Shown in pieces: positions 78 through 62,206 of a stretch of 64,000 bases of DNA. The notes under the pieces were generated by a model. That model saw nothing but the letters and a program-made list of their open reading frames with translations, was not told where the DNA came from and made no database searches. A program made the position numbers and the translations under genes. This DNA comes from a bacterium (GTDB taxonomy: Bacteria; Patescibacteriota; Patescibacteriia; SG8-24), in NCBI GenBank assembly GCA_043825985.1, contig JBDRRB010000018.1:16934-80933 (forward strand). The letters are read 5' to 3'. The stretch's first letter is position 1; each line of letters begins with the position of its first letter.

Positions 78-1295
78 GTGCTGCACCTGACCGAGGACGA
101 CCTTGCCGGCACCGACGGTCCGAACATCATTCCTCCCCCTTCAGGCGGAGGACGGTTGGGACCGGCGTTCGACGCCTGGAGGTCCCTGGACCGACGGAGC
201 CGAAACCTGCTGCTCGCGGCGGTCGGACTGACGCTCGTCGTCATCGTCAGCCTGACCGGCCTGTTCTGGCGGCGCAGCTCCGACCAGACGACGGCCGGAT
301 TCGACAAGCAGGTGGCGGCCATCCGTCAGCAGATCGATTCGGCCGAAGCCAGCCTGATCTACCGCGACGAGGACCGGGCCCGTCGGCTGCTCGACGAGGC
401 AATGGCGGCGATCGCCGGACTGCCTGACCGGCCAGAAGACCGGGCTCAGACCAAACAGGAGCTGTCGGAGGAGATCCGACTCAGGTTCTCCGATCTCCGA
501 CGGGCCGTGCAGCTAGACGCGCCGGAAGTGATCGCGTCGATATCGAGCGACGGCCAGCCGGTCGAACTGCGGCTGCTGACCACCGAAACCAACGGCCGTC
601 TCTGGACCGCCGCCGCCGACGGCCGAATATTCCTGGTGTCAACTGACGGGTCGGCGGAACTGCTCCACACCCCGAACCCGTCCAAGGCACCGACCTTCCT
701 CCTGCCGAAGGGCAACGGCACCCTGGTCGGATACGACGATGGGCAGCTGGTCTCGGTCTCGACCGGCGGAAAGGTGGCCGAACTGCCCCTGTCGATCGGC
801 GACTACGAGACCGGCATCGGGGCGGCGGCCGTCTACGGGTCACGGATGTACCTGCTCGACCCGGGACACAACCGCATCCTGCGGCTGGCCGCGACCGGCA
901 ACGGCTACGGCAGTCCGGAAATCTACGTCAAGGACGGCACCGACCTGTCTAAGTCGGTATCGCTGACCATCGACGGCAGCGTCTACGTCCTGTCCTCCGA
1001 CGGCAAGATCGTCCGCCTGCTGCAGGGCAAGGGCACCGACTTCAACACCGACCCCACTGACCCACCCCTCAGCAGCCCCAGGCTGATCCGCTCGTCGAGC
1101 GACCGCGATGACCTCTACGTCCTCGACGGCGGACGCGTCGTCCGGTTCGACAAGACCGGCGGAAGGCTGATCCGACAGTACGAGTCCGCCGACCTGGAAT
1201 CGGCCGGCGACTTCCTGGCCGTGCAGTCGGAGAGGCACCTGCTGATCACGAACGGCAACCGACTGCTGCGCTTCACCTGGCCGGAGGAAAACTAA
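78..1295 (+). CDS. Membrane-anchored beta-propeller-like repeat protein (hypothetical)
   Basis: N-terminal TM helix (LLLAAVGLTLVVIVSLTGLFW), then repeated blade-like motifs (DGRIFLVSTDG, DGKIVRL, GGRVVRFD). Function unknown. Confidence 0.5.
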   Translation: MLHLTEDDLAGTDGPNIIPPPSGGGRLGPAFDAWRSLDRRSRNLLLAAVGLTLVVIVSLTGLFWRRSSDQTTAGFDKQVAAIRQQIDSAEASLIYRDEDRARRLLDEAMAAIAGLPDRPEDRAQTKQELSEEIRLRFSDLRRAVQLDAPEVIASISSDGQPVELRLLTTETNGRLWTAAADGRIFLVSTDGSAELLHTPNPSKAPTFLLPKGNGTLVGYDDGQLVSVSTGGKVAELPLSIGDYETGIGAAAVYGSRMYLLDPGHNRILRLAATGNGYGSPEIYVKDGTDLSKSVSLTIDGSVYVLSSDGKIVRLLQGKGTDFNTDPTDPPLSSPRLIRSSSDRDDLYVLDGGRVVRFDKTGGRLIRQYESADLESAGDFLAVQSERHLLITNGNRLLRFTWPEEN

Positions 1296-1317
1296 GTCGG
1301 TTCGACGATCACAAAAA

Positions 1318-1350
1318 ACAAATCCCTGACCGAATGTCGGGGATTTTTGT
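1318..1350. terminator. Bidirectional intrinsic terminator between convergent genes
   Basis: Hairpin aaatccctgaccgaatgtcggggattt followed by TTTTTG on plus; the complement gives a hairpin followed by TTTGTTTTTT on minus. Confidence 0.55.
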
Positions 1351-1369
1351 CCTATTAATCTAGATCCTT

Positions 1370-1786
1370 TTACAACTTCTCAACTATCTCGTAAATGTAC
1401 TGACCAAACTTGTCCTGTCCCATCGCCCGCCACTCCTCAGGAGTGTGCCACTCACCCCGCCGTTCTGGTTTATCCGTGATGAAACGGTCAACTTTGCCTA
1501 CCTTAACCAAATAGTCAGCGAAAATCATGTGAATCTTTTCCCCATCAGTACCTTGGACGTCCAAGCCATCCGTCAAACCGATTAACTCCAACTTCTCCAC
1601 ATCCAAATTGGTTTTCTTCTTGACGTTCTCACGTATGATTGAATCGATCGTCTGGCCCCACTTTATTTCTCCGTTAATACAGGTAAAACGATCATTCTGA
1701 GAAGGTGTGCTCCGCAAGTAAAGTCGCCCGGCCGGATCAAAAATAAATGCACCCGCCAAAAACTTTGGTTTTTTCTCTTCACTCAT
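1370..1786 (-). CDS. NUDIX-fold-like protein with degenerate NUDIX box (RENVKKK in place of REUxEE)
   Basis: G-x5-Q-x6-RE-NVKKK resembles G-x5-E-x7-REUxEExGU but the catalytic Glu are Lys. Start taken at ATG (MSEEKK), since the longer ORF starts with GTG. Local GC (~45%) is well below the flanks. Confidence 0.4.
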   Translation of the reverse strand: MSEEKKPKFLAGAFIFDPAGRLYLRSTPSQNDRFTCINGEIKWGQTIDSIIRENVKKKTNLDVEKLELIGLTDGLDVQGTDGEKIHMIFADYLVKVGKVDRFITDKPERRGEWHTPEEWRAMGQDKFGQYIYEIVEKL

Positions 1787-1904
1787 AGGTTTAAACGGCA
1801 CTGATTAACAGACCGATCATGGCAGGTATATTTTTCGAAGAAAACAAGAAGGCGGACCACATCGGTCCGCCTTCTGCGTCTCGAACGCGAGTTCGAACGC
1901 CCGA

Positions 1905-2330
1905 CTACTTCAGAGTGATCTTGGCGCCGGCCTCCTCGAGCTTCTTCTTCCACTCCTGGGCCTGTTCCTTGGCCACGCCCTCCTGGAGGACCTTCGGGGC
2001 GCTGTCGACGACACCCTTGGCGTCGGCGAGGCCCATCTGGGTCAGCTCGCGGATCGCCTTGATGACGCCGATCTTGTTCGAACCGGCCTCGGTGATCTCG
2101 ACGTCGAACGAAGACTTCTCGTCCTCGGCGGCGGCGTCGCCACCGACGGCCGGAGCGGCACCGGCGAAGGCCATCATCGGAGCGGCGGCCGAAACGCCGA
2201 ACTTCTCCTCGAGGACCTTGACCAGCTCGGCCAGATCCAGCACGGACATCTTCTCGATGCTGCCGACGAGGTCCTTGAACTTGGCCGGGGCCTCAACCTC
2301 CTTCTTCTCGTCCTGATTCTCTTCCGACAT
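1905..2330 (-). CDS. rplL: 50S ribosomal protein L7/L12
   Basis: The C-terminal domain ([20 protein letters not shown]...EAGAKITLK) and Ala-rich hinge are characteristic of L7/L12. Confidence 0.95.
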
Positions 2331-2379
2331 AACAGTCTCTTTTAAGTAATTGCGGTTAAAGCGTGTTTCGCCGACCAGG

Positions 2380-2901
2380 TCAGGACTTCGCGTCCTTGAC
2401 CGCGTTCAGCACGTAGACCAGGTTGCGGATGTTGCCCTGCAGCGCGCCGACCAGTCCGGACAGCGGTGCGCGGATAGATCCGACCACCTGAGAGATGAGC
2501 TGCTCCCGACCCGGCAGCTTGGAGAGGGCGATGATCTCGTCGGAGGTCACCCATCGCGACTCCAGGATTCCGCCCTGGACGTTGAGCTCCTTGCGCTCCT
2601 TGCGGATGTCGGCCACGAGCCTGGCCGGAGCCACCTCGTCGCCCAGACCCAGGAGAAGGGTCAGGCTGCCGCCGATCAAGTCCTCGTCGAACGACAGTCC
2701 GGCCTCCTTGGCCGCCCGGTGGAGCAGGGTCTTCTTGACGCCCCTCACCCGAACCGACTGCTGTCTCGCCTTCTGACGAAGCGCCGTGGTCTCCTGCACC
2801 TTGAGCGGCGACAGGTCGGCCATCACGATCGACTTGGCCTGCCTCAGGCTGTCGGCGATCTCGCGCACTTCGGCTTCCTTCTGTTCCCTTGTCTTGGCCA
2901 T
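2380..2901 (-). CDS. rplJ: 50S ribosomal protein L10
   Basis: [12 protein letters not shown]... N-terminus is typical of L10 and the gene sits immediately upstream of rplL. Start trimmed to the MAKT ATG. Confidence 0.9.
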
Positions 2902-3240
2902 AAAGCAATGCGTTTTCTTTTTCCGAACCCGAAGGTTCAACTCGACCTTTGGTGACACCCCGGAAACCGAGGCGCGAACCGCCGCCGGGCCGCCACGATG
3001 GCGTCCGACGAGGCCCGTCTGAAACTAAAATGCCGCGGCATTACCGCAGACATGGGTTCGCGAGACTGACGACGAAATTCCGTCCCGCTTGCCTGTGCAG
3101 GCGCCACAGCGTGGCTTTGTCCTCGCGGACCCGCAGTCTACGGCTATGCTTTGTCGAGGGCATGATAGTACCCCGCCGCGACACTGTCAAGCCAGCGCCG
3201 GACGGGGTACCTTCCTGCCCGTCTATCTTTAGATGGCGAA
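2902..3240 (-). promoter_or_regulatory. Long non-coding 5' leader upstream of rplJ (candidate L10-leader autoregulatory region plus promoter)
   Basis: About 340 nt without a credible ORF between rplJ and the next minus-strand gene. The call rests on position and on L10-leader precedent in other bacteria. Confidence 0.3.
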
Positions 3241-3242
3241 GC

Positions 3243-3719
3243 CTATTCCGGCACGCTCAGGGTAGCGTTGCCCAGTTCCGGCTCGATCTTGATCACCCGC
3301 TCGATCTCGGTGACCTGCCCGGCGTCGTCGGCGACGGAAATGCGCAGGGTCATCTGTCCGCGGGAGGCGATCTCGACGTTGCCGGCCAGCATGGCGAAGG
3401 AGACGCGCTCCTCGTAGTCGCGTCCGACCAAGTCGTCGCGCGAGATCTTGATCGTCTTGTTGAGCTCCACCACCTGCACCTTGAGCGTGCTGAAGTCGAT
3501 CGCGTAGTCGTCCTGTACGCGCACCATGCCGACCATCTCCGTCAGCCGGACACGGCCGATCGGCGTCCAAGTGAAGTCCACGGTCGGCTTGTTGTCCTGC
3601 CCGCGCGTCAGGTGGGAAAAACTCTTCCACCGGTCGGCCACCACCAGGACGGCGATGAAGATGACCGCCGCCACGATCGGGAAACTAATGATCCGCCTCT
3701 TTTTGGTCTGTCTTTCCAT
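3243..3719 (-). CDS. Hypothetical membrane-anchored protein
   Basis: ORF with one N-terminal TM helix (IISFPIVAAVIFIAVLVVA), abutting pyrH-like gene, no antisense competitor with better features. Confidence 0.45.
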   Translation of the reverse strand: MERQTKKRRIISFPIVAAVIFIAVLVVADRWKSFSHLTRGQDNKPTVDFTWTPIGRVRLTEMVGMVRVQDDYAIDFSTLKVQVVELNKTIKISRDDLVGRDYEERVSFAMLAGNVEIASRGQMTLRISVADDAGQVTEIERVIKIEPELGNATLSVPE

Positions 3720-3727
3720 ACTGAAAA

Positions 3728-4426
3728 TCACTCTCCGATGACGGTGCCGCGGAAACGGTCCCCGTCCAGGATCTTCTTTAGGTTGTCGAGCCGCCCGCCG
3801 TCCGCGATTATGACCCGCAGGCCGGACTCGTGCGCCAGCTTAGACGCAACCGGGTCAAAAGGCAAGTTGGAACCGGGCACCCATTTCGACCCGACCAGCT
3901 TCCGGTATTCCTTCCAGCCCATCTCCTTGAGCGGCCGCGCGTCGGGATGGCGTTTCGGGTCGCGGTCGTAGACGTAATCGATGTTGGTCAGGTTGATGAC
4001 GGTCGACGCAGCTAACTTCTTGGCCAGCAGAACCGCCTCGTAGTCGCTCGAGCAGCCGGGCTTCCATCCGGCGCTGACCACTATCGAATGCCTGACCCGC
4101 AACGGCAGCGTCGGGTTAAGGACCATCTCCGGATGTGCCATATCGCGAAATACGGTCCTGACCAGATGACCGTTCATCCGTGTCGCCTCAATACCCAGCA
4201 AGTCCAGCTCCCTACTCGTCAAGCGAACGACTGCCGAACTGGCGCGCTGATATTCGCGCGCGAGGCTACCGCCGCCGCAGATGATCGCGAATTTCCGACC
4301 AAGTTTCACTTGCGCCAGGATCAGACTTCGAAAACGGCCCAGGTAGCGATCGTCCACGCGACCGTCTGGATTAATCAACGACCCGCCAAGGGAAAGGACA
4401 AACGTTTCGGAGCTGCTTTTGGCCAT
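3728..4426 (-). CDS. pyrH: Uridylate kinase-like (amino-acid kinase family, short archaeal-type PyrH)
   Basis: FVLSLGGSLI...IICGGGSLAR...VVSAG...IIADGG motifs of the carbamate/UMP kinase fold; ~230 aa. Confidence 0.6.
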   Translation of the reverse strand: MAKSSSETFVLSLGGSLINPDGRVDDRYLGRFRSLILAQVKLGRKFAIICGGGSLAREYQRASSAVVRLTSRELDLLGIEATRMNGHLVRTVFRDMAHPEMVLNPTLPLRVRHSIVVSAGWKPGCSSDYEAVLLAKKLAASTVINLTNIDYVYDRDPKRHPDARPLKEMGWKEYRKLVGSKWVPGSNLPFDPVASKLAHESGLRVIIADGGRLDNLKKILDGDRFRGTVIGE

Positions 4427-4617
4427 AGCTGCGTAGTTATCTTATTCAAGAGAAGACCTGACTGGCGTCAGGTCTGGATGCTCATTTGGGCCGCCGGGGC
4501 GGAACGGGCTGCGGACGGCGGGGTGCCGACCGGAACGAGCTCGGCGTCCGATAGCCGAGCTTGGCGCTCTTTCCCCTGGTCCGGGCGTTGTTCTTCATAG
4601 GAAGAGGTGCAAAGAGA

Positions 4618-5382
4618 TCACTCGTCCTCGCGGCGGCGCAGCTCGATCCGTCCGATGTTGTCGACGTATCGGCGGGCGATGCCCCGGTACTCGGACGACA
4701 TGGAGTCGATCGCCGCTAGCAGGCTCGCCACGGCGGCGAATCCGGACAGTATCATGCCGGCCGAGAGACGTGCTGTCCAGGCGTCGGCCGTCGACAGCCA
4801 GACCGTCACCGCCAAGGCAAGCCAGAGCAGCACGATCGTGCCCCAGACGTAGGACGACATGCGCGAATCCTTAAGTTCCTTGATCTGCTGGCGCGACTCG
4901 GCCACCACGGCGACCGTGCGGAGCAACTCGTCGTACAGCACCTCCTCCTTGCTGGAACGCAGTTCAGGAACCTTGTAGACGTGGTAGCTCAGCTCGCGAA
5001 ACTTCGAGTTGAGGTCCTCGTAACGACTGAAGTCTATCTCGGAAAACGCGCTCAGGTAGTGGTAGAGATGGCCGTGCAGCTCGGTGAACCAGCCCCGGTA
5101 GCGCTGACCGTCGGTCTCGCTCAGGTTCTTGGAGATATGGTAGATGCGCCGGAGCTTGTTCAGCTCGAGATTGACCGTCTGCATGAGGCGGCGGCGCTTG
5201 TCGACGGCATACCCGAAGAGCAGGACCATGACCAGCGAGACCAGCATGGCCATCGGCAGGTCGAAGCGGGGGCGTCCGGACTGGCCGTAGGCCGGCAGCG
5301 CGAACATGACCGCGACCGGCACGACCAGCGACAGTCCGAGGTACAGGACCGTCCTCTTAGAGTGCATTATGTCCATAGGCAT
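4618..5382 (-). CDS. Hypothetical integral membrane protein
   Basis: 254-aa ORF with several predicted TM segments. Confidence 0.5.
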   Translation of the reverse strand: MPMDIMHSKRTVLYLGLSLVVPVAVMFALPAYGQSGRPRFDLPMAMLVSLVMVLLFGYAVDKRRRLMQTVNLELNKLRRIYHISKNLSETDGQRYRGWFTELHGHLYHYLSAFSEIDFSRYEDLNSKFRELSYHVYKVPELRSSKEEVLYDELLRTVAVVAESRQQIKELKDSRMSSYVWGTIVLLWLALAVTVWLSTADAWTARLSAGMILSGFAAVASLLAAIDSMSSEYRGIARRYVDNIGRIELRRREDE

Positions 5383-5418
5383 TGACGTTGGCCCTTAGCC
5401 CGGGCTGGGAGCAGTATA

Positions 5419-5646
5419 TCACACGGATTCGCCGAACTTTACCTTCAGCTCGTTGACCCGGGTCTCGACTTCGGTCAGTCGCTGGCGGCACCTCTGGGCC
5501 AGGTCGAGCCCGCGTTCGAACCTCTTGAGGCCCTCGTCGAGATCGATCTCGCCGGAATCGAACCACTTGATTATCTCCTCCAGCTCGGCGTAGCTGCGGC
5601 CGAAGTCGATCGGCTCGTCCTGCGCGGCGGTCTTTTTCTGTGTCAT
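5419..5646 (-). CDS. xseB: Exodeoxyribonuclease VII small subunit
   Basis: 75-aa helical protein (FEESLAELEEIIKWFDSGEIDLDEGLKRFERG...) immediately downstream of xseA. Confidence 0.85.
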   Translation of the reverse strand: MTQKKTAAQDEPIDFGRSYAELEEIIKWFDSGEIDLDEGLKRFERGLDLAQRCRQRLTEVETRVNELKVKFGESV

Positions 5647-5668
5647 GACTTTGATGGAAACGGACCGG

Positions 5669-6919
5669 TTAATCCCGGACCACTGACTCGACCCGAACGC
5701 CCACCCGACCGCGGTGCAGCTCGATGTCGAGGGTATCCCCGACCGACGCGCGGGAAGCCTCCCTGAGCGGCCGGCCGGCCAGGCGAACGATGGAATATCC
5801 CCGCTGCAGCACGGCCCGGGGATCGAGGCTCTCCAGGAGCCGGCGGCGATCCGCCAGCCGCTCGTTCAGCCTCGACAGGAACGGTCCCGGCGCCTCCAGC
5901 AGGCGGGGTTCGATCCGGCGCAGGTCATGCGACAGCATCGCCACCCGTTCGGCGAAGCGGCCGAAGACGTCGGTCAGGTCGCGCTGGCGATGGCGGAAGG
6001 ACGATACGGCCGACATGATGCCTCGTTCCATGACCCGAACCGCCCGGTCCATCTCCGCGACCCTCTCCCCGACGGCGGTATCCATGCCGTAGGTCAGGCG
6101 TCGGCGAAGCGACTCGACTGCCGCGCCGACCTCGTTGCGGTCCGGCACCACGATCTCCGCGGCGTTCGACGGCGTGGAGGCCCGGACGTCGGCGGCGAAG
6201 TCGGCCAGCGTCTCGTCGCGCTCATGCCCTACCCCGACCACGATCGGCATCGGCGACGAGAAGACTGCCCGAGCGACCTCCTCGGAGTTGAACGCCTGCA
6301 GGTCCTCGAGCGATCCGCCGCCCCTCGTGAGCACCAGCACGTCGGCCAGCTCCGGATGGGCGGCAAAATGGGCGAAGGCGGCCAGAATGTCGCCGACGGC
6401 ATCGCGGCCCTGGACCTGCACGTGGACGGAATTCACCTCGACGTCCGACCAGCGGTTGCCGAGGATGCGCAGGAAGTCGGAATAGGCGGCCGACTCGCGC
6501 GAGGCAATCAGGCCGATGCGCCGCGGAAACTTGGGCAGCGGCCGCTTGCGGGCCGGATCGAAGATTCCCTCCGCCTCGAGAGAGCGCCGCAGCAGGTCGT
6601 AGGCCCGACGCAGTGCGCCCTCGCCGACCGGCTCGACCCGATCGACCACGACCGAGAACTTGCCGCTCCGCTCATGGACCTTGGGCTGCCCGTAGATGCG
6701 GACCTGCATTCCGTCCTCGAGCGGCTGCCGGAGCTTCCAGGTGGTGCCGAAGCAGGACAGGACCGCGCCGTTGTCCTTGACCAGGAACCAGATCCACTTG
6801 CCCTGCGAGACGCGATATTCGGCCACCTCGCCCTCGATCGCCACCCCGTCAGGAAAAACCGCCTCGGACAGGGCGGAGTTCAGGAAGCCGACGAATTCGG
6901 TCACCGAAAAGTTGTGCAT
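5669..6919 (-). CDS. xseA: Exodeoxyribonuclease VII large subunit
   Basis: N-terminal OB-fold (FSGKFSVVVDRVEPVGEGAL) and catalytic core (LTRGGGSLEDLQAFNSEEVARAV) are typical of XseA. Confidence 0.9.
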   Translation of the reverse strand: MHNFSVTEFVGFLNSALSEAVFPDGVAIEGEVAEYRVSQGKWIWFLVKDNGAVLSCFGTTWKLRQPLEDGMQVRIYGQPKVHERSGKFSVVVDRVEPVGEGALRRAYDLLRRSLEAEGIFDPARKRPLPKFPRRIGLIASRESAAYSDFLRILGNRWSDVEVNSVHVQVQGRDAVGDILAAFAHFAAHPELADVLVLTRGGGSLEDLQAFNSEEVARAVFSSPMPIVVGVGHERDETLADFAADVRASTPSNAAEIVVPDRNEVGAAVESLRRRLTYGMDTAVGERVAEMDRAVRVMERGIMSAVSSFRHRQRDLTDVFGRFAERVAMLSHDLRRIEPRLLEAPGPFLSRLNERLADRRRLLESLDPRAVLQRGYSIVRLAGRPLREASRASVGDTLDIELHRGRVGVRVESVVRD

Positions 6920-12372: not shown

Positions 12373-13380
12373 GTGATAAAATGCAGGACGACAGGCGCCA
12401 CCATAAACGACAACACCATGAGTCCCAGTCCAGAAAAACGAGACAGGCCGGACAATGCCGGCGTCGACGGCAGCAAGGCCGCCCCGGAAAGGAAAGACGG
12501 GACCGAGAACGACCAACGCAAACAGCTGAAGGCTGAAATGGCGACCCGCAGACGGAAATTCACGGCGCTCAAAAAACTGCTCGACGAATACGAAAAGGCG
12601 GCGGCCCTGGCCGATCCTGACGACCAGGACCAGCAGGTGCTGAAAAAGGTGGCCAAAAAAGGCGGACCGCACGCCGTCCGGCTCAAGATGCTGCAGGAGG
12701 AACGGTCCGGGCTGCTCCTGCAGCAAAGGATCATGACCGACCGGGTAAACGAGACACGCCGCGAGCTGAACGCCGGCACCGAGCCGCTGGAAACGACGGC
12801 CGAACGGCTCAAGTCCGAGCTGACGGTGGCCGGCGACGAGAAAAAGATCGCCGTGACCAAAAGGATGCTGAAGAAGGTCGAGGACGCGATCGCCCTGGAG
12901 CTGACACTGGTGACGCTCCAGTCCAGCCTAAACGAGAACCGAGCCGAAACCGATCAGGCCGAGAGAAACGCGCTGACAGCGGCCACGGCCGAGACCGCAC
13001 CGGACGACGACGAGCGACCGACGGTCGAGATGGCCGCCGCGGACGACGACGAAGACGACGACGAAAGGCCGACGGCCGAGATGGCCGCCGCGGACGACGA
13101 CGAAAGGCCGACGGTCGAGATGGCCGTCGCGGACGACGACGGACGGTCGACGGTCGAATACCGGGCGAAACCGAAAATGCAGCCGGATAGCGGGCGAAAC
13201 ACGGACGGAGAAACCGAAGAGCCGGCCAAAAAACCGACCCGATGGCAGCGTCTGAAGGACTGGTGGAACCGACCCAAAGGCCTGAATCCGCCGGAAGCGA
13301 AGCACGAGAAGAGAAACGACGACTTCGCCGAGATGCTCAAGGAGGTCTGGGCCGGAATCAAGTCGATGTTCAAGTTCTAG
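12373..13380 (+). CDS. Acidic coiled-coil protein with internal tandem repeats (hypothetical)
   Basis: Lys/Glu-rich helical N-terminus, then 3-4 in-frame repeats ERPTVEMAAADDDE. Confidence 0.5.
   Translation: MIKCRTTGATINDNTMSPSPEKRDRPDNAGVDGSKAAPERKDGTENDQRKQLKAEMATRRRKFTALKKLLDEYEKAAALADPDDQDQQVLKKVAKKGGPHAVRLKMLQEERSGLLLQQRIMTDRVNETRRELNAGTEPLETTAERLKSELTVAGDEKKIAVTKRMLKKVEDAIALELTLVTLQSSLNENRAETDQAERNALTAATAETAPDDDERPTVEMAAADDDEDDDERPTAEMAAADDDERPTVEMAVADDDGRSTVEYRAKPKMQPDSGRNTDGETEEPAKKPTRWQRLKDWWNRPKGLNPPEAKHEKRNDDFAEMLKEVWAGIKSMFKF
12990..13160 (+). repeat. In-frame tandem repeat (~45-54 nt unit) inside the acidic protein gene
   Basis: Unit ccgacggtcgagatggccgccgcggacgacgacgaa... recurs three to four times with small variations. 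Confidence 0.6.
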
Positions 13381-13408
13381 CTTCTTACACGCGAGACGAA
13401 CGGGCGAC

Positions 13409-13440
13409 GCAAAAAGACCGGCTGCCAGGCCGGTCTTTCG
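13409..13440. terminator. Bidirectional terminator between convergent genes
   Basis: agaccggc-tgccag-gccggtct hairpin flanked by AAAAA 5' and TTTCGG 3'. Confidence 0.5.
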
Positions 13441-13473
13441 GCTAAAAAACTCCATGACGCGACGAACGCCGGC

Positions 13474-14913
13474 TCAATCCGCCGCCGGACCGAAGAACCG
13501 GGCGTTCTCGCGCACCAGCCAGTCCTTCAGCTCGCGCGTGGCCACCACGTCGTCGCGGTTGTACTCGACGATGCTGTCGAGTGCGGCCCGGTCCCCCGTC
13601 TCCAGCCAGCGCTCGTAGACGGCGACCGACTCCCCGCCGCCGGCGATCTCGCCCTGCCGGTCGAAGCCGATGTACTTGCCGATGTCCTTGATGCCGTAGA
13701 AGTAGAGTGGCAGCACCACGCTGTCCTTGACCGTCTCGTTCAGGTCGACCAGCCGCGACCGGAACGTGTCCAGCCCGGCCGACCCGCCGTAGCGAGACTC
13801 GAGGGCGTTAAGTCGGACCAGCTCGAAGGTGCCGAAATGGTAGACCGCATAGTCGCCGGGCAGCCCGGACAGCCAGCGCAGGAACTCGCGCCACATCCCC
13901 TCCTCGCCCTCGGGCGACTCGGCCAGCTGACGCTCGTACCTCTCGCCGGAACCGTCGCGGACCAGGAAGCCGAACAGGTAGTCCACGCCGCGCAGCGGAT
14001 CGCTCTCGATGTCGAAGAAGATCTCGGTCGGAGACTCGGGCAGGCTGACCGGACGGCGGAAGACATGCTGACGGTCGATGAGCGCCGCGGCCTGAAGCTT
14101 GGCCCGCCGCAGCAGGTCGAGCTTGATGTCGCGGTTGCGGCCGTGCACCTCGTCCGGGTCCATGTCCGCCGCATCCTCGACCGACCGGATGCCCAGCTCG
14201 CGCAGCTGCTCCAGCGTCTTGGCCTTGATGTTGTAGAGCAGCGTAATGTCGTTCGTGCTCTCGGCCAGGGCGATGCACTCGGAGAACCACGGCGACACGC
14301 GGCAGCCGGACGACAGCCGCGGTCCGGGCCGGCGGCCGGACAGCAGCTCGCGCAGCTCGCCGAGCACCCGCCGGTAGAGCTCCTCGACCTCGTCCAGCTG
14401 GCAGCCGATGCGCACGCCGCTGGCGTTCAGTATGTAGCCGAACTCCGGCCGGGCCCCCTGCACCCGTTCCAGCAGGTCGCCGTACATGGCCAGCTGCAGC
14501 CGCATGGCGTCGGTGATCCGTTCGGCGCTCTTGATTTCCGTCGGCTCGTAGGAATACGAGCCGTACCTGGACGGCCGGCCGTCGCGCCGCTCAAGCAGGT
14601 CCGGCTCGCCGATCAGGTCGCCGTCCCTGAGCAGGCCGTGATAGATTCGTTCCGTGCCGGCGGCCATCAGCTCCTGGGTGCGGGCAAAGCGCGCGTCCTC
14701 GTCGCCGTCGCCGACCGGCTCGTACTCAAGCCCAGCCAGCAGCCGCTCCTCGTGCAGCAGCCCCCGCTCCAGGAGCAGGCCATGGAAGCGGGACGGCTCG
14801 GTCCGCCGGGACCGGTCGCCAAAACGGTCGAACCACAGCCAGTGGTTACAGGTGAAGTACTTGATGAACATCCCGGCGCTGATCCGGGGCGGTTGTTCTT
14901 GTCGGTTAGTCAT
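13474..14913 (-). CDS. RecB-family nuclease (COG2251/TM0106-like: Cas4-like PD-(D/E)xK domain plus RNase-H-like domain)
   Basis: N-terminal Cys/Trp-containing segment (YFTCNHWLWFD) and SYSYEPTEIKS...Y PD-(D/E)xK-like core. C-terminal IFFDIESD... RNase-H/DnaQ-like motif. Start uncertain (14913 or 14871). Confidence 0.6.
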   Translation of the reverse strand: MTNRQEQPPRISAGMFIKYFTCNHWLWFDRFGDRSRRTEPSRFHGLLLERGLLHEERLLAGLEYEPVGDGDEDARFARTQELMAAGTERIYHGLLRDGDLIGEPDLLERRDGRPSRYGSYSYEPTEIKSAERITDAMRLQLAMYGDLLERVQGARPEFGYILNASGVRIGCQLDEVEELYRRVLGELRELLSGRRPGPRLSSGCRVSPWFSECIALAESTNDITLLYNIKAKTLEQLRELGIRSVEDAADMDPDEVHGRNRDIKLDLLRRAKLQAAALIDRQHVFRRPVSLPESPTEIFFDIESDPLRGVDYLFGFLVRDGSGERYERQLAESPEGEEGMWREFLRWLSGLPGDYAVYHFGTFELVRLNALESRYGGSAGLDTFRSRLVDLNETVKDSVVLPLYFYGIKDIGKYIGFDRQGEIAGGGESVAVYERWLETGDRAALDSIVEYNRDDVVATRELKDWLVRENARFFGPAAD

Positions 14914-14989
14914 GTTTCGAGGAATCGATGTAATGAATGATCCCAGCACCAGCGGACTTCTGGTCGGGATCCACCTTCGCTAAAGCTAT

Positions 14990-15395
14990 GGTGGACAGGT
15001 GCAGTGTGCCGACCTAGGACAAATCCACGCAGGTTCTGGGCGGGACCCGCCTCCGCCCTTCGACTTCACTACGGGCGGGGCAAGTGTTATGTACTCGGTT
15101 TCACACGCCAGCGGACTTCAGGTTGAGATGATATGTGCCGGTCTGGGGCGAGTCACGCGAAGAAACCATCGGCAGGTTCTGGGCGGGACCCGCCTCCGCC
15201 CTTCGACTTCACTCAGGGATACGGGCGGACAAGTGTCATGTGCCGACACCCTGCATCTCAACATCAGTGGGCTTCGGACGGGATGCGATGTGCCCGGCTG
15301 GACCGAACGACGAAGCGAAACGTACTGAAAACGTACGTTGAGCTAGGAGCGAGGGAAGCCGGACGCAGCGCGCCCGATCCGGAGACCACTTATCT
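14990..15395. repeat. Nested intergenic repeat array: 42-nt exact direct repeat (15029-15070, 15172-15213) plus modules of the dispersed structured element (copy A 15271-15392)
   Basis: Exact duplicate gcaggttctgggcgggacccgcctccgcccttcgacttcact. Recurring (a)tgtgccg motifs. Copy A core atgcgatgtgcc...aacgtac-tgaaaac-gtacgtt...gcagcgcgcccgatcc with a pairing closing helix cttcgga/tccggag. Confidence 0.7.
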
Positions 15396-16646
15396 TTACT
15401 CGTACTTCAAGGCGGAGATGGGGTCCAATTCCGCCGCCTTCCTCGCCGGATACGCGCCAAACACCATGCCGATGACCATGGCCACGAGCAGGGCCGCCAG
15501 GAAGGACGGCAGGGACACGGCGTACTGGACGTCGAAGCCGGTATACCTGGCGTAGGCGATGACCGCAACCGTCAGGACCGTGCCGGACAGCCCGCCCAGG
15601 GCACCGCCGGCCGTGGTCAGGATGACCGCCTCGGCCAGGAACTGCTGCCAGATGACCGCATTCCGGGCGCCGAGTGCCTTGCGCAGTCCGACCTCGCGGA
15701 CGCGCTCGGTGACCGAAACCAGCATGATGTTCATGATGCCGATGCCGCCGACCAGGAGCGAGATCGCGGCCAGCAGGCCGAGCAGGATGGTGATGGCGTT
15801 CGTCACCGTGCCGATCGTCTCCATCACCTCGGTATATGTATGCACCATGAAGTCGTCCTTGTCCGGGTCAGTGATGTCATGCCGCCGCCGCAGCACGGCC
15901 GAGGCCTCCTCGGAGACCGGATCGATGTACCGCTTGTCGGAGACGATCAGGTCTATCTCCTGCACGTACTCGTCGCCGGACAGCCGCTTCTGCATCAGCT
16001 TGAGCGGCATCAGGACGATGGTGTCGAAGTCCATCGGACCGAACACGCCGCGCGGCTCGAGCACACCGACGACCTGGAGGTTCAGCCCCTTGAGGCGGAC
16101 CTTCTGGCCGATCGGGTCAGACTCGCCGAACAGGTGCTCGGCCACCTTGCTGCCGAGCACGATCACCGGCGTCATCGACTTCTCCTCGCGCTCGCTGAAG
16201 ATCCGGCCGGCGCCGATCTCGGCCTGCAGGTCGAACGACATGTAGTTGGCGGTCGTGCCGAAGACCAGTGACCGGTACTCGCTGTCGCGGAATGACACGA
16301 AGGCCTGGCTGGTGTCGAAGGCCACCGCCTCGAGCACGTGCGGCAGGGACCGGAGCGCCTCGGCGTCGTCGTAGGTGATCGAGACGACCTCGGCGGCGGA
16401 GAACTGCGAGGTGATCGCGCCCTGGTCCGACAGTCCGGGGACGGTGGCGTTGATGGTCACGAAGTTCTTTCCGAACTGCTCGACCTGGGCCAGGATGTAG
16501 CTCTTCAGGCCGAAGCCGAGGGAGACGATCAGGGTGACCGAAAAGACGCCGATGGTCACGCCCAGGAGCGACAGCACGGTGCGCAGGCGGTTGCGGCGAA
16601 GGTTCCTGAGCGCCAGTCCGACGGTATTGCGATAGGCGTGCGGCAT
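15396..16646 (-). CDS. ABC transporter permease, FtsX/MacB-type
   Basis: N-terminal TM, large periplasmic domain, C-terminal 3-TM FtsX domain. Confidence 0.85.
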   Translation of the reverse strand: MPHAYRNTVGLALRNLRRNRLRTVLSLLGVTIGVFSVTLIVSLGFGLKSYILAQVEQFGKNFVTINATVPGLSDQGAITSQFSAAEVVSITYDDAEALRSLPHVLEAVAFDTSQAFVSFRDSEYRSLVFGTTANYMSFDLQAEIGAGRIFSEREEKSMTPVIVLGSKVAEHLFGESDPIGQKVRLKGLNLQVVGVLEPRGVFGPMDFDTIVLMPLKLMQKRLSGDEYVQEIDLIVSDKRYIDPVSEEASAVLRRRHDITDPDKDDFMVHTYTEVMETIGTVTNAITILLGLLAAISLLVGGIGIMNIMLVSVTERVREVGLRKALGARNAVIWQQFLAEAVILTTAGGALGGLSGTVLTVAVIAYARYTGFDVQYAVSLPSFLAALLVAMVIGMVFGAYPARKAAELDPISALKYE

Positions 16647-42637: not shown

Positions 42638-42689
42638 AGCCGAATTACGTTAGGGCATTTCTTCTCCTTATTTGCCGCTTGATTATACA

Positions 42690-42716
42690 ACAAAAAAGAG
42701 CGCGGAACACGCTCTA
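42690..42716 (-). terminator. Minus-strand intrinsic terminator at the edge of the low-GC islet
   Basis: On minus: agagcgtgttccgcgctct hairpin followed by TTTTTTG. Confidence 0.5.
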
Positions 42717-42814
42717 CGAAAAGGAACTCGTCTCTATCGTTCAACAACGGCAGCGCTGGCTGAGGTGCAGCCGACGATAGGCCTGATCAGCCAGCGGACA
42801 GAACAACCCAGGAT

Positions 42815-43054
42815 TCAGTTCGGAAGTGGCATCCAAACCGAGCCATTCGGTTCAAACATCCACTGATTCATGATGTTCACCAACTCACCACGGTCTGAGG
42901 GTACGACCTTGAAAAAGTTGTGAACGAGCTGAACATAACGACGGGACTCGGGATCGGTGTGGGAAATGTCATCGAAAACCATTTCCTCGCCACAGCTCAG
43001 CACATCACCGGCCAACAGGCTCGAACTGACCAGCCCGGACATGAAGCCAGACAC
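42815..43054 (-). pseudogene. Short ORF or gene remnant of unknown function
   Basis: 79-aa ORF in a 650-bp gene-poor stretch with intermediate GC. No start context and no recognisable complete domain. A minus-strand terminator lies downstream. Confidence 0.2.
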
Positions 43055-43288
43055 CGTTTCGACCAGGGTATCGCCCTTTGTGACCGGAATGCCAGGGAAA
43101 GAAAGTTAAAGTAGCCTCCTGAAAAAATCTAATAACAAAAAAATTTATTTCATATAACGTTCCAGAATATGCGATGTTTGGCAGTGGTAAAATTTGGAGC
43201 GGAGCGACATACCACTGCCAAATATGAGAGAGCGAACGGAGCGATAGCGGAGTGAGTGAACCAGTTATTCATTGTTAAGTGATGTGAT

Positions 43289-43765
43289 TTAAATTTTCTC
43301 CATCATTTTCTCAACTGTTTCTTCAACTGTCAGATCGGTATTGTCAATTTCATGACCTGCTTGAATTTTTGTAGTAACCATGTGCACGAATCGAGCAGAA
43401 TCTTCACCGTAAACTTTTTTCCTTTTGGAATCCCTCTCGATACATTTATCTACGTGGCTGGTTAGAGTGAAAATTTCTACATCATTATCAAATTTTTCCA
43501 CTAAATCATCAATTTGTTCTTGATAGTAGAAACACCCATCAATAATAAAGGAATTTTCACTCTTCTTTGCTAAATCGAGGATGATTTGATTTGCTTTTAA
43601 GTAGCTCTCGAGAGGGATTCCATCTGAATTAGCTGGAACCAGTTTGTTATCATCAACAATTTGATCTAGTGATAAATATTCTAGGTGAAGATTCTGCGAC
43701 AACAGTTGAGAAACAGTTGTTTTGCCAACACCTAATGGACCTCTGATTATTATTAGTTTTTTCAT
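43289..43765 (-). CDS. Small P-loop kinase (AAA_33/NMP-kinase-like, predicted nucleotide or small-molecule kinase)
   Basis: Walker A GPLGVGKTT at residues 9-17 and a 158-aa single-domain kinase fold. Gene and flanks are ~35-40% GC against ~65% for the window. Confidence 0.6.
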   Translation of the reverse strand: MKKLIIIRGPLGVGKTTVSQLLSQNLHLEYLSLDQIVDDNKLVPANSDGIPLESYLKANQIILDLAKKSENSFIIDGCFYYQEQIDDLVEKFDNDVEIFTLTSHVDKCIERDSKRKKVYGEDSARFVHMVTTKIQAGHEIDNTDLTVEETVEKMMEKI

Positions 43766-43971
43766 AGACTGAAAAATTAAATCATTTCACATAACGTTGG
43801 GCTTATGCGAAGTTCAAAATTTGAGGCAACCCACAAATTTTGAATTTGGGAAACCGAAGTGCAACGAGGTTTCCGCATAAGCCCTGTTATGTGCCCCGAG
43901 CGTAACGCAGTGAAGCGAGAGTGCAACGTGGTCGACCGACTGAAAGGAGGGAGAAGTTAGGGTGGCGGACA

Positions 43972-44334
43972 TCATTCAATGAATCCATCTCTCTTCAGCT
44001 TCTCAAGTGAATTATTGATGGATTCTTCTAATTCTTTATCTGCTTTGTAATAAGCACATATTTGGAGGGCTGAACGTAAGACATCTTGAATCTCTTTGGC
44101 GAGCTTCTTTTTGTCTGGTTCTCCATGCTTATCTTTTTTAACTCCGGTATTCTCAAAATGATTTACTTCACTAGCAAGCTCGCCACATTCTTCAACGAGT
44201 CGTGTGATTATTTGAAAAGGATCTTTGCCATTCGGAAACTTCTTATCTAATCCCGCGTTAATTTTTATAACTTTGTCTAACATATTTGTTGTGAAGCCCT
44301 CCAAATATTTAAAGATGATGTAATTGTCCGCCAC
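43972..44334 (-). CDS. MazG-like nucleotide pyrophosphohydrolase (small all-alpha NTP-PPase)
   Basis: EECGELASEV (EExGE motif) and a second acidic helix (EIQDVLRSAL). 120 aa. Low GC, with an AT-rich upstream region. Confidence 0.65.
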   Translation of the reverse strand: MADNYIIFKYLEGFTTNMLDKVIKINAGLDKKFPNGKDPFQIITRLVEECGELASEVNHFENTGVKKDKHGEPDKKKLAKEIQDVLRSALQICAYYKADKELEESINNSLEKLKRDGFIE

Positions 44335-44399
44335 CCTAATTGCACATAACTAGTTTTTATCCGAACTTTGTATTCCAAGTGTGATAAATTCTTGTTTGT

Positions 44400-44871
44400 T
44401 ATACAAACTTTTTTAAAAAAGCCGAACTCTCGAGGTTGAGAAAACAATAGTAAGGTTTAAACCGGAATCCGGTTCAATCGTTTCTGGATCCCGGATCTCC
44501 TTCCCTCCGGTCAGTCGTCCGGGATGACAGGCTAGGGGGCTGGTCAGTCGTCCGGGATGACAATAACTGTTGTCATGGCAAGCAGAAAAAGCAGCAGTGA
44601 TCAGAAAAACAAGCAGCCCTTGGACGGGAGGCGATGTACCGATCGAAAAACAAAGCAGGCCACAGATTGGACCCACCTCCACCAAGACTTCGGTGGGCAG
44701 GTGAAGTGTGTCCTAACCGGTCCCGGAAAATGAAACAGCCCTTGGACGGGATGCGATGTGCCTGCTTGGAGGAAATCGTACGACGAGGCGTACTAGTGCA
44801 ATACGTCGAGTAAACGATTTCCGAAAGCTGGTGCAGCGCGCCCGATCCAAGGGCTGCCATTCCTTGACGGT
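44400..44871. repeat. Repeat-dense spacer: 21-nt direct repeat (ggtcagtcgtccgggatgaca x2), two 5' modules of the structured element (44617, 44739), and copy D (44737-44858) ending 14 nt from the tsf stop
   Basis: cagcccttggacggga[gt]gcgatgt[ag]cc occurs twice. Copy D closing helix cagcccttgga/tccaagggctg is a perfect 11 bp. Conserved gtgcagcgcgcccgatcc 3' core. Confidence 0.65.
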
Positions 44872-53792: not shown

Positions 53793-54109
53793 AATCATGT
53801 CATTGCGAGCGAGTGCGGCGAGCGTGGAAATCCCGACCGAAGCACAGACCCCGACGGGATCATCACGTTACGTCGATTCCTGCCTGCCCCGCCTGCCGGC
53901 GTGCAGGAACAGGCAGGCGCTCCTCCATTCGTGACGAGAACATCCCCGTGGATTCCCGATACGTCGTTCGCGAACGACGTATCCCGCCGGAGCCTGCCCT
54001 CGCGAAGGCGGGGGGCGGTAATGACATGCGGTTAGATGAAAAACAAACCGACCAGGACTCTCTGGTCGGACGTAACTACTATGGCAAGCAGGTTCTGGAT
54101 GGAATTCAT

Positions 54110-54250
54110 CTTAAAACAAAGCGGACTTCAGGTTGGATGAAGTGTGCTTGGCTGGAGCGATCCGTGCAGCGAAACGTACTAAGAACGTACGTTGAGCAAA
54201 CGGATCGCGAAGCCAAGTGCAATTCGCCAAGCTGGAGTCCGCCCAATCTA
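54110..54250. repeat. Structured repeat element, copy B (diverged)
   Basis: gcggact...agtccgc 7-bp closing helix, atgaagtgtgc core, gcgaaacgtac-taagaa-cgtacgttgagc hairpin, gtgcaattcgcc 3' core. Overlaps the stop codon of 54248..55249. Confidence 0.6.
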
Positions 54251-61534: not shown

Positions 61535-61639
61535 TCGCACGCATACGGTGGGTCCCCGGACTCGGGACCGCTTCTCTCCGTAGACAAACGGAAACCCCGC
61601 TTCTTAAAGCGGAGCCGTCCAATTCATTCCAAACATCGA

Positions 61640-61762
61640 CGGGCACTGGGCGGGATGCAGTGTGCCCCGCTGGACCGAGCGACGACGCGAGACGTACCCA
61701 AAATGTACGGCGAGCTAGGAGCACGGGAAGCGGGGTGCAATGCGCCCGACCCAGTGACCGCA
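61640..61762. repeat. Structured repeat element, copy C, within the rplK 5' leader
   Basis: Closing helix cactggg/cccagtg (perfect 7 bp), junction cggg/(A)/cccg, core atgcagtgtgcc, hairpin gacgtac-ccaaaat-gtacgg, gagctaggagc, gcaatgcgcccga. Ends about 10 nt before the rplK ATG. Confidence 0.65.
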
Positions 61763-61771
61763 TAGAAAAAT

Positions 61772-62197
61772 ATGGCTAAGAAGGTAAAGACACAGATTAA
61801 GCTCCAGATCCCGGCCGGCCAGGCCAACCCAGCGCCGCCAGTCGGTCCGGCCCTCGGTCAGCATGGCCTGAACATCGCCGAGTTCTGCCAGAAGTTCAAC
61901 GCCGCCACCCAGCAGATGATGGGCGACATCACGCCGGTCGTGATCACGGTCTACGAGGACCGGACCTACGACTTCATCCTCAAGACCCCGCCGGCAGCCG
62001 AGCTGCTCAAGAAGGCGGCCGGAGTCAAGAAGGGCTCCGGCAAGCCGCTCTCGGACAAGATCGGTTCCGTCACCAAGGCGCAGGTCCGCGAGATCGCGGA
62101 AAAGAAGCTGGCCGACCTGAACACCGACGACGTGGAGGCCGCCATGCGCACCATCGAGGGCACGGCCCGGCAGATGGGCCTGACAGTCAAGGAATAA
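61772..62197 (+). CDS. rplK: 50S ribosomal protein L11
   Basis: [35 protein letters not shown]... is the canonical L11 N-terminus. Confidence 0.95.
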
Positions 62198-62206
62198 GCC
62201 TCACAC

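What the first reader, a model, noticed from the sequence alone, without database searches (positions are those of the whole stretch)
14990..15395. Nested tandem array of repeat modules between the RecB-family nuclease and the FtsX operon
The 450-bp spacer contains an exact 42-nt direct repeat (15029-15070 and 15172-15213, gcaggttctgggcgggacccgcctccgcccttcgacttcact) that itself holds a GGGCGG/CCGCCC hairpin. It also holds three copies of a (c)aagtgt(c/t)atgtgcc-like module, a half-copy resembling the 5' half of copy B (gcggacttcaggttgagatg...), and then full copy A. The element family therefore appears modular and locally amplified here. The two long plus-strand ORFs in the track (14999-15328 and 15133-15555, sharing GSGRDPPPPFDFT) are simply translations of the 42-nt repeat. 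Two copies are too few and too irregular for a CRISPR array. The gcaggttctgg module also appears at 54088, next to copy B.
Basis: seen in the sequence. Interest (0 to 1): 0.5.

Follow-up and report, generated by a model that had tools for sequence, protein, structure and literature searches.

The report
Rod-hairpin repeat family, locally amplified
The spacer holds one intact copy and four broken copies of a previously undescribed ~130-base hairpin-forming repeat that is scattered through the small genomes of some Patescibacteria (candidate phyla radiation, CPR) and has been inserted here into an operon junction.

Summary
An exact 42-nt direct repeat (15029-15070 and 15172-15213) lies in a run of related modules that ends in a full element. 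The full element (15262-15394) is one of four same-strand copies in the window. Each is a ~130-nt imperfect palindrome that folds into a rod.

- **Structure:** across 23 non-redundant copies from Patescibacteria genomes and metagenomes, 93% of cells pair, 32 of 44 pairs show compensatory changes, and internal loops are invariant. G·U outnumbers A·C 103:18, so the + strand is the folding strand.
- **Modules:** the four upstream modules are truncated or rearranged 5' arms with no significant fold of their own. Arrays of 5' halves also precede full copies in other genomes.
- **Insertion:** relatives with the same FtsX-nuclease operon have overlapping genes and no spacer. The tsf-site copy is likewise missing in relatives. 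One genome has five copies 93-98% identical.
- **Negative searches:** there is no Rfam, plasmid or phage match, and no transposase in the window.

Best reading: a new small structured interspersed repeat, like REPIN, ERIC or BOX elements, locally amplified. It is not CRISPR, not coding and not an artefact. How it spreads, and whether RNA or single-stranded DNA folds, remain unknown.

The parts
14949..15028 (+). Module M1. It has a 5'-arm-like sequence (AGCGGACTTCTGGTCGGGAT ... GTGCAGTGTGCC) interrupted by a small CCACC/GGTGG hairpin (14971-14994). It has no 3' arm.
   Evidence: D2, D3; weak 5'-half hit 15000-15031. The fold is not significant (z=-1.16). The sequence is confirmed by independent unitig L024.
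15029..15109 (+). Module M2 ('type-2' module). Copy 1 of the exact 42-nt repeat is at 15029-15070. It has the GGGCGGG/CCCGCC palindrome, a CCGCCC...GGGCGG hairpin, and then AAGTGTTATGTAC.
   Evidence: The fold is not significant (z=0.07).
15110..15171 (+). Module M3. It is an orphan 5' half of the element, truncated near the apical GCGAA(AC).
   Evidence: nhmmer 5'-half profile hit 15111-15158, E=0.0012. Alignment. No fold of its own (z=+0.57).
15172..15265 (+). Module M4 (type-2). Copy 2 of the exact 42-nt repeat is at 15172-15213. The rest is about 80% identical to M2, with a 7-nt indel.
15262..15394 (+). Full element, copy A. The rod hairpin spans 15266-15390. Its 3' end lies 1 nt from the stop codon of the convergent FtsX gene.
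   Evidence: cmsearch 139.8 and 120.6 bits. MFE -67.1 kcal/mol, z=-7.33. Covariation. Neighbour distances.
44613..44641 (+). Orphan 5' arm upstream of copy D.
   Evidence: D13; E=0.053. In the MFE fold it can pair with the 3' arm of copy D.
44655..44715 (+). Type-2-like module upstream of copy D. It carries CCACC/GGTGG where M2 and M4 carry CCGCC/GGCGG.
   Evidence: A - strand terminator-like site overlaps it (44679-44652).
44730..44862 (+). Full element, copy D, 9 nt from the stop codon of the convergent tsf gene.
   Evidence: Reproduced by unitig L022. Absent from the tsf-gap spacer of relatives.
54081..54115 (+). Truncated type-2 module (GCAGGTTCTGG at 54088) directly upstream of copy B.
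54116..54247 (+). Full element, copy B, abutting the stop codon of the convergent ORF 54248-55249. A - strand terminator lies beyond it at 54069-54048.
61634..61766 (+). Full element, copy C, co-oriented with rplK and ending 5 nt before its ATG (61772).
13474..14913 (-). TM0106-family RecB-like nuclease gene (RNase_H_2 domain), the left border of the spacer. The start codon is uncertain: 14871, 14913 or 14949.
15396..16646 (-). MacB/FtsX-type permease gene, the right border of the spacer. In relatives its stop overlaps the nuclease start.

Best explanation
The spacer is a lineage-specific insertion, into the FtsX-nuclease operon junction, of a small non-coding interspersed repeat. It holds one intact unit and four truncated or rearranged 5'-arm derivatives.

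Shown. The intact unit is a ~130-nt imperfect palindrome. Its + strand folds into a rod of about 44 base pairs. The rod has invariant internal loops: three tandem G.A/A.G loops and a U.G/G.U-containing helix. Copies are dispersed at about one per 16 kb in this window. They occupy different sites in different Patescibacteria genomes. Within a genome they range from near-identical to about 50% identical. They keep the fold through compensatory changes. They sit mostly just beyond the stop codon of a gene on the other strand.

Inferred. The family spreads, or once spread, by copy-and-insert. The intermediate would be a strand-specific single-stranded molecule (RNA or DNA) recognised through the conserved loops. 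The enzyme would act in trans and is not encoded in this window. Locally, partial duplication, gene conversion and decay build up orphan halves on the upstream side only. The likely reason is that the 3' end is pinned against a gene end. The perfect 42-nt identity between M2 and M4, set in ~80%-identical surroundings, marks the most recent such duplication or conversion tract. The partial modules are most likely inert remnants, like REP singlets.
For: Structure: on 23 non-redundant copies, 93.4% of cells pair against 28-43% for slid controls. 32 of 44 pairs change on both sides, and 0 of 500 shuffles reach any measure. Copy A has z=-7.3. The folding strand is +: G.U:A.C is 103:18 overall and 53:15 at covarying pairs.

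Dispersal: there are four + strand copies in 64 kb. Copies occur in Parcubacteria, Uhrbacteria and other Patescibacteria MAGs and in four metagenomes.

Insertion polymorphism: relatives with 80% and 66% identical nucleases have an ATGA stop/start overlap with FtsX and no spacer. Another relative has 95 nt and no rod. The tsf-gap spacers of six related contigs have no rod. The rplL-downstream site is filled in L012 and empty in the window. The rpsJ-downstream site is filled in L002 and L007 but not in L019.

Burst and decay pattern: five copies in one metagenome are 93-98.5% identical with unrelated flanks. The window copies are 51-76% identical to each other, and two of them (A, C) match copies in other genomes as well as or better than any copy in the window.

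Remnants: orphan halves lie directly upstream of full copies in the window, L009, L019 and L007. The partial modules do not fold significantly on their own.

Analogy: REPINs show hairpins, compensatory changes, singlet remnants and tandem clusters (PMC3116915). BOX elements are modular with tandemly amplified modules, and such repeats are enriched beyond convergent gene ends (PMC3049150).
Against: No transposase, RAYT, reverse transcriptase or integrase is encoded in the window. None sits next to any copy. A memory-based Y1-transposase query found nothing in about 300 kb of held DNA (a lead only). No target-site duplications are evident. No transposition event was observed directly. Loop sequences are conserved across genomes of 43-66% GC, and the apparently orthologous rpsJ-site copies of L002 and L007 differ by compensatory changes. 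Both facts could mean a host function maintained in place. Many copies are followed by bidirectional terminators, which would also suit small RNA genes. There are no expression data. Total copy number in the genome is unknown.
Confidence: 0.65

Rival explanations
1. The rods are genes or modules for a multi-copy structured small RNA with a cellular function, for example a protein-binding or sponge RNA. The upstream 5'-arm modules would add unpaired GGA-containing binding sites, or would act as alternative pairing partners for the single 3' arm.
For: There is strong covariation and a + strand G.U excess. Non-canonical loop motifs are invariant. Terminators directly follow many copies, and in L012 one lies on the element's own strand. 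An orphan 5' arm can pair with the 3' arm of copy D. Loop sequence is conserved across distant genomes.
Against: No promoter-like site lies upstream of the window copies on the + strand. In several genomes a GC hairpin followed by TTTT abuts the 5' end, leaving no room for a promoter. Copies occupy different sites in related genomes and are missing at orthologous sites. The density of about 1 per 16-27 kb, and the mix of near-identical and ~50%-identical copies, is typical of repeats and not of sRNA genes. Copies lie antisense inside the str and S10 operons. The partial modules do not fold significantly.
Confidence: 0.17
2. The element is a host cis-acting device at gene ends. It could be a 3'-end stabiliser, an RNase processing site, or a terminator or insulator between convergent or tandem genes. 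Any earlier mobility would be irrelevant to its present role.
For: The downstream neighbour is a convergent ORF in about 18 of 21 copies, and its stop codon is within 70 nt in 14. Window copies B and D lie between a - strand gene's stop and a - strand terminator, so their reverse complement is in a 3' UTR. Many neighbours are translation genes: tsf, rplK, rplL, rpsJ, fusA, rpsG and gatB. ERIC and Correia elements have orientation-dependent effects on mRNA (PMC3049150).
Against: Selection acts on the + strand fold, not on the strand that the neighbouring mRNAs carry. In L021 and L015 the neighbour's own terminator lies between the gene and the rod, so the rod is outside that transcript. No U-tract follows the rod in the window copies. 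Relatives manage without it at the same sites. Two copies sit in the sense orientation just before start codons.
Confidence: 0.12
3. The region is a degenerate CRISPR-like or TIGR-like guide-RNA array.
For: It has direct repeats containing small hairpins. TIGR arrays occur in CPR bacteria (PMC12045711).
Against: There are only two exact repeats, 143 nt apart. The 'spacers' between them are themselves related modules. TIGR units are 36 nt and lie next to a Tas (Nop-domain) gene. No cas or Tas gene is in the window.
Confidence: 0.01
4. The region is an assembly artefact: duplicated or collapsed reads created the repeat.
For: No independent contig spans the whole spacer.
Against: The repeat is only 42 nt, and its flanks have diverged. 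The independent unitig L024 breaks exactly k-1 nt into the repeat, which implies two real left contexts in the reads. The same architecture is seen at the independently assembled D locus and in other genomes, L009 and L019.
Confidence: 0.03

Closest known systems
REPINs (REP doublets forming hairpins) of Pseudomonas, E. coli and others
   Same: Both are non-coding, extragenic and multi-copy. Both form a long hairpin from two inverted arms. In both, compensatory changes keep the hairpin, decayed half-elements ('singlets') are left behind, and tandem clusters occur (PMC3116915; here).
   Different: No RAYT gene was found. There is no REP-like 16-mer or GTAG motif. The arms are consistently non-identical, with invariant G.U pairs and bulges. 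Loop sequence is conserved across genomes of very different GC content. The host is a reduced CPR genome.
ERIC / IRU elements of enterobacteria
   Same: By my own recollection, not checked in a paper here, ERIC units are imperfect palindromes of about 127 bp that are conserved between genera, lie in intergenic regions and occur as shorter or longer variants. Orientation-dependent effects on mRNA are reported (cited in PMC3049150).
   Different: The sequence is unrelated and the phylum is different. ERIC units are not known for polar arrays of 5' halves. No sequence comparison with ERIC was run here.
BOX elements of Streptococcus pneumoniae
   Same: Both have a modular, mosaic build. In BOX, end modules that pair with each other flank a variable number of tandemly repeated internal modules. 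BOX copies are enriched downstream of genes and between convergent genes (PMC3049150).
   Different: In BOX the amplified module (boxB) lies inside the hairpin. Here the amplified modules are truncated 5' arms outside and upstream of the intact hairpin. There is no sequence similarity, and no IS with matching ends is known.
Correia elements (NEMIS) of Neisseria
   Same: Both are small hairpin-forming repeats of about 100-155 bp inserted near genes. Both can be co-transcribed, and Correia elements can be cleaved by RNase III or create promoters (summarised in PMC3049150). A - strand promoter-like site lies inside M3.
   Different: Correia elements have defined terminal inverted repeats and a TA duplication. 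Neither was seen here.

Membership tests
REPIN / REP-RAYT system | Two inverted arms forming a hairpin, kept by compensatory changes | tested here: met
   44 pairs, 93.4% paired, 32 pairs with double changes.
REPIN / REP-RAYT system | A RAYT (Y1/HUH transposase) gene in the genome, flanked by the repeats | tested here: inconclusive
   None among about 50 window proteins. None next to any copy. A memory-based query found nothing. Only 64 kb of this genome is available.
REPIN / REP-RAYT system | Tens to hundreds of extragenic copies per genome | tested here: inconclusive
   4 copies in 64 kb. 3 in 8 kb in L007. At least 5 on 5 contigs of one metagenome. No whole genome was available.
REPIN / REP-RAYT system | Decayed singlets and tandem clusters | tested here: met
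   Orphan halves were found in the window, L009, L019 and L007.
MITE | Target-site duplication flanking each copy | tested here: not met
   The flanks of 28 copies show no direct duplication. Inspection was by eye only.
MITE | Terminal inverted repeats shared with an autonomous IS in the same genome | tested here: inconclusive
   The arms are inverted repeats, but no IS or transposase was found in the held sequence.
MITE | AT-rich composition | tested here: not met
   The GC content of copies is 42-69%, and most lie at 50-68%.
CRISPR array | At least three near-identical repeats at regular spacing, separated by unique spacers, usually with cas genes | tested here: not met
   There are two copies 143 nt apart. 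The interval is made of related modules. No cas gene was found.
TIGR-Tas array | Tandem 36-nt units (or stem-loop units with box C/D-like motifs) adjacent to a Nop-domain Tas gene | tested here: not met
   Unit size and layout differ, and there is no Tas gene in the window.
Any Rfam 15 family | Match to a curated covariance model | tested here: not met
   There were 0 gathering-score hits in the window. The spacer gave only noise at E<=10. L002, L007 and L019 gave nothing relevant.
Independent small-RNA gene | Own promoter and terminator, and a discrete transcript | tested here: inconclusive
   No + strand promoter-like site lies near the window copies. Terminators follow many copies elsewhere. 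Transcripts cannot be tested with these tools.
Independent small-RNA gene | Conserved genomic position among relatives | tested here: not met
   Orthologous sites are empty in relatives at the A, D and rplL sites and at the rpsJ site of L019.

The most novel reading that the evidence does not exclude
The rod may be more than a passive repeat. It could be the substrate of a dedicated, still unidentified enzyme or RNA-binding protein of Uhrbacteria-like Patescibacteria. That would make it either a new kind of structure-guided mobile element that works without a neighbouring transposase, or a domesticated RNA module whose three tandem G.A loops and invariant wobble helix are read by a host protein. 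In the second case it might control processing or antisense pairing at the ends of highly expressed genes. Its orientation would be tied to the direction of replication: the folding strand lies on the C-rich strand in 16 of 18 loci.
Probability: 0.25. Interest if true: 0.75.

Novelty: new member of a known kind. Interest (0 to 1): 0.5.

Why it matters
CPR/Patescibacteria genomes are very small, and by my own recollection they are usually described as poor in repeats and mobile DNA. This region shows a well-supported, structure-constrained repeat family at roughly one copy per 16-27 kb in the sequence examined. It is shared by several lineages, inserted even inside core operons, and absent from Rfam and from the literature searched. 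The family gives a ready covariance model for annotating these genomes, and it explains spurious ORFs and assembly breaks. It also raises a concrete question: what spreads or maintains a 130-nt rod in genomes where no transposase was seen nearby? The polar arrays of 5' halves and the strand and orientation bias are testable clues to that mechanism.

Tried and rejected
- **Known RNA families:** Rfam found nothing at gathering thresholds or at permissive thresholds. ARAGORN found no tRNA or tmRNA.
- **TIGR-Tas arrays:** considered after a literature hit and rejected on unit size and the lack of a Tas gene.
- **CRISPR:** rejected.
- **Coding repeat:** rejected.
- **Plasmids and viruses:** no match in the plasmid or phage collections or in viral contigs.
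- **A recurring neighbouring protein:** the only shared genes reflect ordinary synteny.
- **Transposase:** a Pfam screen of about 50 window proteins found none. A Y1-transposase query written from memory found nothing, and this counts as a lead only.
- **Partial modules as independent structured RNAs:** their folds are not significant.
- **Further modules shared among window spacers:** an all-against-all comparison found only this family plus two small palindromes.
- **More copies in the window:** a second covariance model built from 23 copies found none.
- **Kink-turn reading of the G.A loops:** rejected by inspection, because the required 3-nt bulge is absent.
- **Exact boundaries of the insertion at the operon junction:** the nuclease N-termini differ between relatives, so no boundary or duplication could be defined.
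- **GC-skew analysis:** suggestive but confounded by coding-strand effects.
- **Independent contig spanning the whole spacer:** exact-protein look-ups of the spacer's flanking genes found none.

Full report
**1. The observation**

The spacer between the - strand nuclease gene (13474-14913) and the - strand FtsX-type permease gene (15396-16646) contains an exact 42-nt direct repeat at 15029-15070 and 15172-15213. None is expected by chance. The match extends to 47 nt at 96%. The shorter 'aagtgtYatgtgcc' modules, the half copy and the full copy are all present. GCAGGTTCTGG recurs at 54088 next to another full copy. The two long + strand ORFs are listed mechanically. They lack the GC3 signature of genes in this 63%-GC window, and their only 'homologue' is another translated element.

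**2. What the unit is**

A repeat search over the window found a dispersed ~95-nt family. Aligning four copies showed stems with compensatory changes. A covariance model finds exactly four full copies, all on the + strand: 15262-15394 (A), 44730-44862 (D), 54116-54247 (B) and 61634-61766 (C). Copy A folds into a rod of -67 kcal/mol, z=-7.3.

One scan each of the genome and metagenome collections with the conserved signature gave 21 loci. All named ones are Patescibacteria, Parcubacteria or Uhrbacteria MAGs, except one probably mis-binned 'Gammaproteobacteria' MAG. The model found further copies in them.

On 23 non-redundant copies the consensus has 44 pairs.
- 93.4% of cells are paired, against 28-43% when partners are slid.
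- 32 pairs change on both sides.
- No shuffle out of 500 reaches any observed measure.

The variable stems are separated by invariant motifs: GGGAUGC.RUGUGC, CUGGA, GCGA/GAGC, GAAG and GUGCA..GCGCC. These include three tandem G.A/A.G loops and invariant U.G pairs. G.U outnumbers A.C 103 to 18 overall, and 53 to 15 at covarying pairs. So the + strand, as RNA or as single-stranded DNA, is the strand under selection.

**3. The anatomy of the spacer**

Upstream of copy A lie four modules.
- M1 (14949-15028) is a 5' arm interrupted by a CCACC/GGTGG hairpin.
- M2 (15029-15109) and M4 (15172-15265) are 'type-2' modules with the same build and a CCGCC(C)/(G)GGCGG hairpin.
- M3 (15110-15171) is a plain 5' half that ends near the apex.

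None of the four folds significantly on its own (z from +0.6 to -1.75).

M2 and M4 are identical for 42 nt but only about 80% identical beyond that, with a 7-nt indel. This points to a recent duplication or gene-conversion tract rather than one clean tandem duplication.

The same layout recurs elsewhere in the window. An orphan 5' arm and a type-2 module, with CCACC/GGTGG in place of CCGCC/GGCGG, precede copy D. A truncated type-2 module precedes copy B.

In other genomes, separate profiles of the two halves find orphan 5' halves upstream of full copies in L009 (two) and L019. An orphan 3' part lies upstream of a copy in L007. Every orphan is upstream of a full copy and in the same orientation, and truncation points vary.

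**4. Is it real DNA?**

Independent Logan unitigs from run SRR26275510 reproduce the D and C loci exactly. Unitig L024 matches window 13085-15058 at 100% and ends exactly 30 nt into the first 42-mer. That is the behaviour of a k=31 graph (the k I assume for these Logan unitigs) at a repeat with two different left contexts. So the duplication is in the reads. No single independent contig spans the whole spacer.

**5. Insertion, not a conserved feature**

The nuclease is a TM0106-family RecB-like nuclease of Patescibacteria. The closest named EF-Ts (86%) is from Candidatus Uhrbacteria RIFOXYC2_FULL_47_19, the genome of locus L007.

Relatives keep the operon MFP-ABC-FtsX-FtsX-nuclease.
- In L025 (80% identical nuclease) and L026 (66%), the FtsX stop and the nuclease start overlap (ATGA).
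- In L027 and L028 there is a 95-nt AT-rich spacer.
- None contains a rod.

Other sites behave the same way.
- In relatives tsf is followed by gap after 139-263 nt with no rod. This includes the Uhrbacteria genome that carries rods elsewhere.
- L012, syntenic with window 198-6906, has a rod after rplL where the window has none.
- The rpsJ-downstream site is filled in L002 and L007 but holds only a 14-nt hairpin in L019.

Identity patterns fit a repeat family with old and young lineages. Five copies from one metagenome are 93-98.5% identical with unrelated flanks. The window copies are 51-76% identical to each other. Copies A and C resemble a copy from another genome (L008) as closely as or more closely than any other window copy.

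**6. Context and orientation**

No protein family recurs next to the copies. The window encodes only housekeeping proteins, with no transposase, reverse transcriptase or integrase.

The downstream neighbour is a convergent ORF in about 18 of 21 copies, and its stop codon is within 70 nt in 14. Between tandem genes the element is antisense about 12 times to 2 (with manual correction for L001). The exceptions are copy C and L001, which end 5-7 nt before the start codons of rplK and gatB.

Relations to neighbouring transcripts differ between genomes.
- In the window, - strand terminators lie beyond copies B and D, so their reverse complements are in 3' UTRs.
- In L021 and L015 the neighbour's terminator lies between the gene and the rod.
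- In L012 a terminator follows the rod on its own strand.

No + strand promoter-like site precedes the window copies.

In element orientation the surrounding DNA has negative GC skew in 16 of 18 loci, and the window is negative throughout. After averaging out the coding-strand effect at third codon positions, 13 of 16 loci remain negative. This hints at an orientation tied to replication, with the folding strand on the C-rich strand. It is confounded and stays an open observation.

**7. Interpretation**

The evidence fits a small, non-autonomous, structure-constrained interspersed repeat of the REPIN, ERIC, BOX or Correia kind.

Shown:
- dispersal
- site polymorphism
- old and young copies
- remnants and local arrays
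- a preference for positions beyond gene ends
- a strand-specific fold kept by compensatory change

Inferred:
- spread through a single-stranded + strand intermediate read by a trans-acting protein
- build-up of orphan halves on the upstream side because the 3' side is pinned against a gene end
- the 42-mer as a recent duplication or conversion tract

REPINs show the same hairpin, compensatory changes, singlet remnants and clusters (PMC3116915). BOX elements show modular tandem amplification and enrichment beyond convergent genes (PMC3049150).

Membership in either family is not claimed. No RAYT, no target duplication and no sequence similarity was found.

Rival readings are less likely, mainly because orthologous sites lack the element.
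- A multi-copy functional small RNA is not excluded, since the loops are conserved across genomes of 43-66% GC.
- A cis-acting device at gene ends is not excluded either.
- CRISPR-like or TIGR-like arrays and an assembly artefact are effectively excluded.

**8. Novelty**

Nothing matches in Rfam 15, the plasmid and phage collections or viral contigs. Four literature searches found no description of such an element in Patescibacteria. I file it as a new member of a known kind. A minority reading remains in which it is the substrate of an unknown enzyme or RNA-binding protein.

Noticed in passing
L019:4280-4570 (also L002 about 4990-5260 and L007 about 1-260): A non-coding block of about 300 nt is conserved between rpsJ and rplC in three Patescibacteria genomes. 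It has no Rfam hit at gathering score. It may be a leader, an intron remnant or an unannotated RNA on the operon strand.
   Followed up: partly
window 53958-53983: A perfect 26-nt palindrome. Its core, ACGTNGTTCGCGAACNACGT, recurs once each in L008, L012, L014 and L021, which suggests a second, much smaller palindromic repeat family shared by these related genomes.
   Followed up: partly
window 42638-44871: Relatives have tsf followed directly by gap (139-263 nt). The window instead has about 2.2 kb of lower-GC DNA (0.52-0.57) carrying a MazG-like gene, a small AAA/kinase-like gene, long spacers and the D array. This looks like an inserted island.
   Followed up: partly
window 1296-1904: A variable spot lies between ORF 78-1295 and rplL. 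The window holds a low-GC3 143-aa ORF with no Pfam match and two terminator-like hairpins. The syntenic L012 holds a different gene, other repeats and a rod element.
   Followed up: partly
window 15156-15128 (- strand): A sigma-70-like promoter match (GTGACT-17-TATCAT) lies inside module M3 and points towards the nuclease gene. The insertion may supply a new promoter for the gene it cut off from its operon.
   Followed up: no
window 44509-44529 and 44542-44562: A direct repeat of GGTCAGTCGTCCGGGATGACA (two copies 33 nt apart) lies upstream of the D array, followed by the palindrome TGACAATAACTGTTGTCA.
   Followed up: no
window 12995-13157: In-frame tandem repeats with a period of 39-51 nt, rich in acidic codons (GACGACGAC...), lie inside ORF 12373-13380, which has no Pfam match.
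   Followed up: no
all loci; window 1-64000: The folding strand of the element lies on the C-rich strand in 16 of 18 independent loci. The window has negative GC skew throughout, with no switch where gene orientation flips at about 46-55 kb.
   Followed up: partly
window 61772-62733 and 1905-2958: rplK is followed by a DUF5671 protein. rplJ and rplL lie about 59 kb away on the other strand, so the usual rplKAJL cluster is split. Whether ORF 62966-63649 is rplA was not checked.
   Followed up: no
L007:3043-3093 versus L020:1-79: Two assemblies of closely related Uhrbacteria differ in how much of a second, partial element copy precedes the fusA-downstream copy. This suggests strain-level variation in array structure.
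   Followed up: partly
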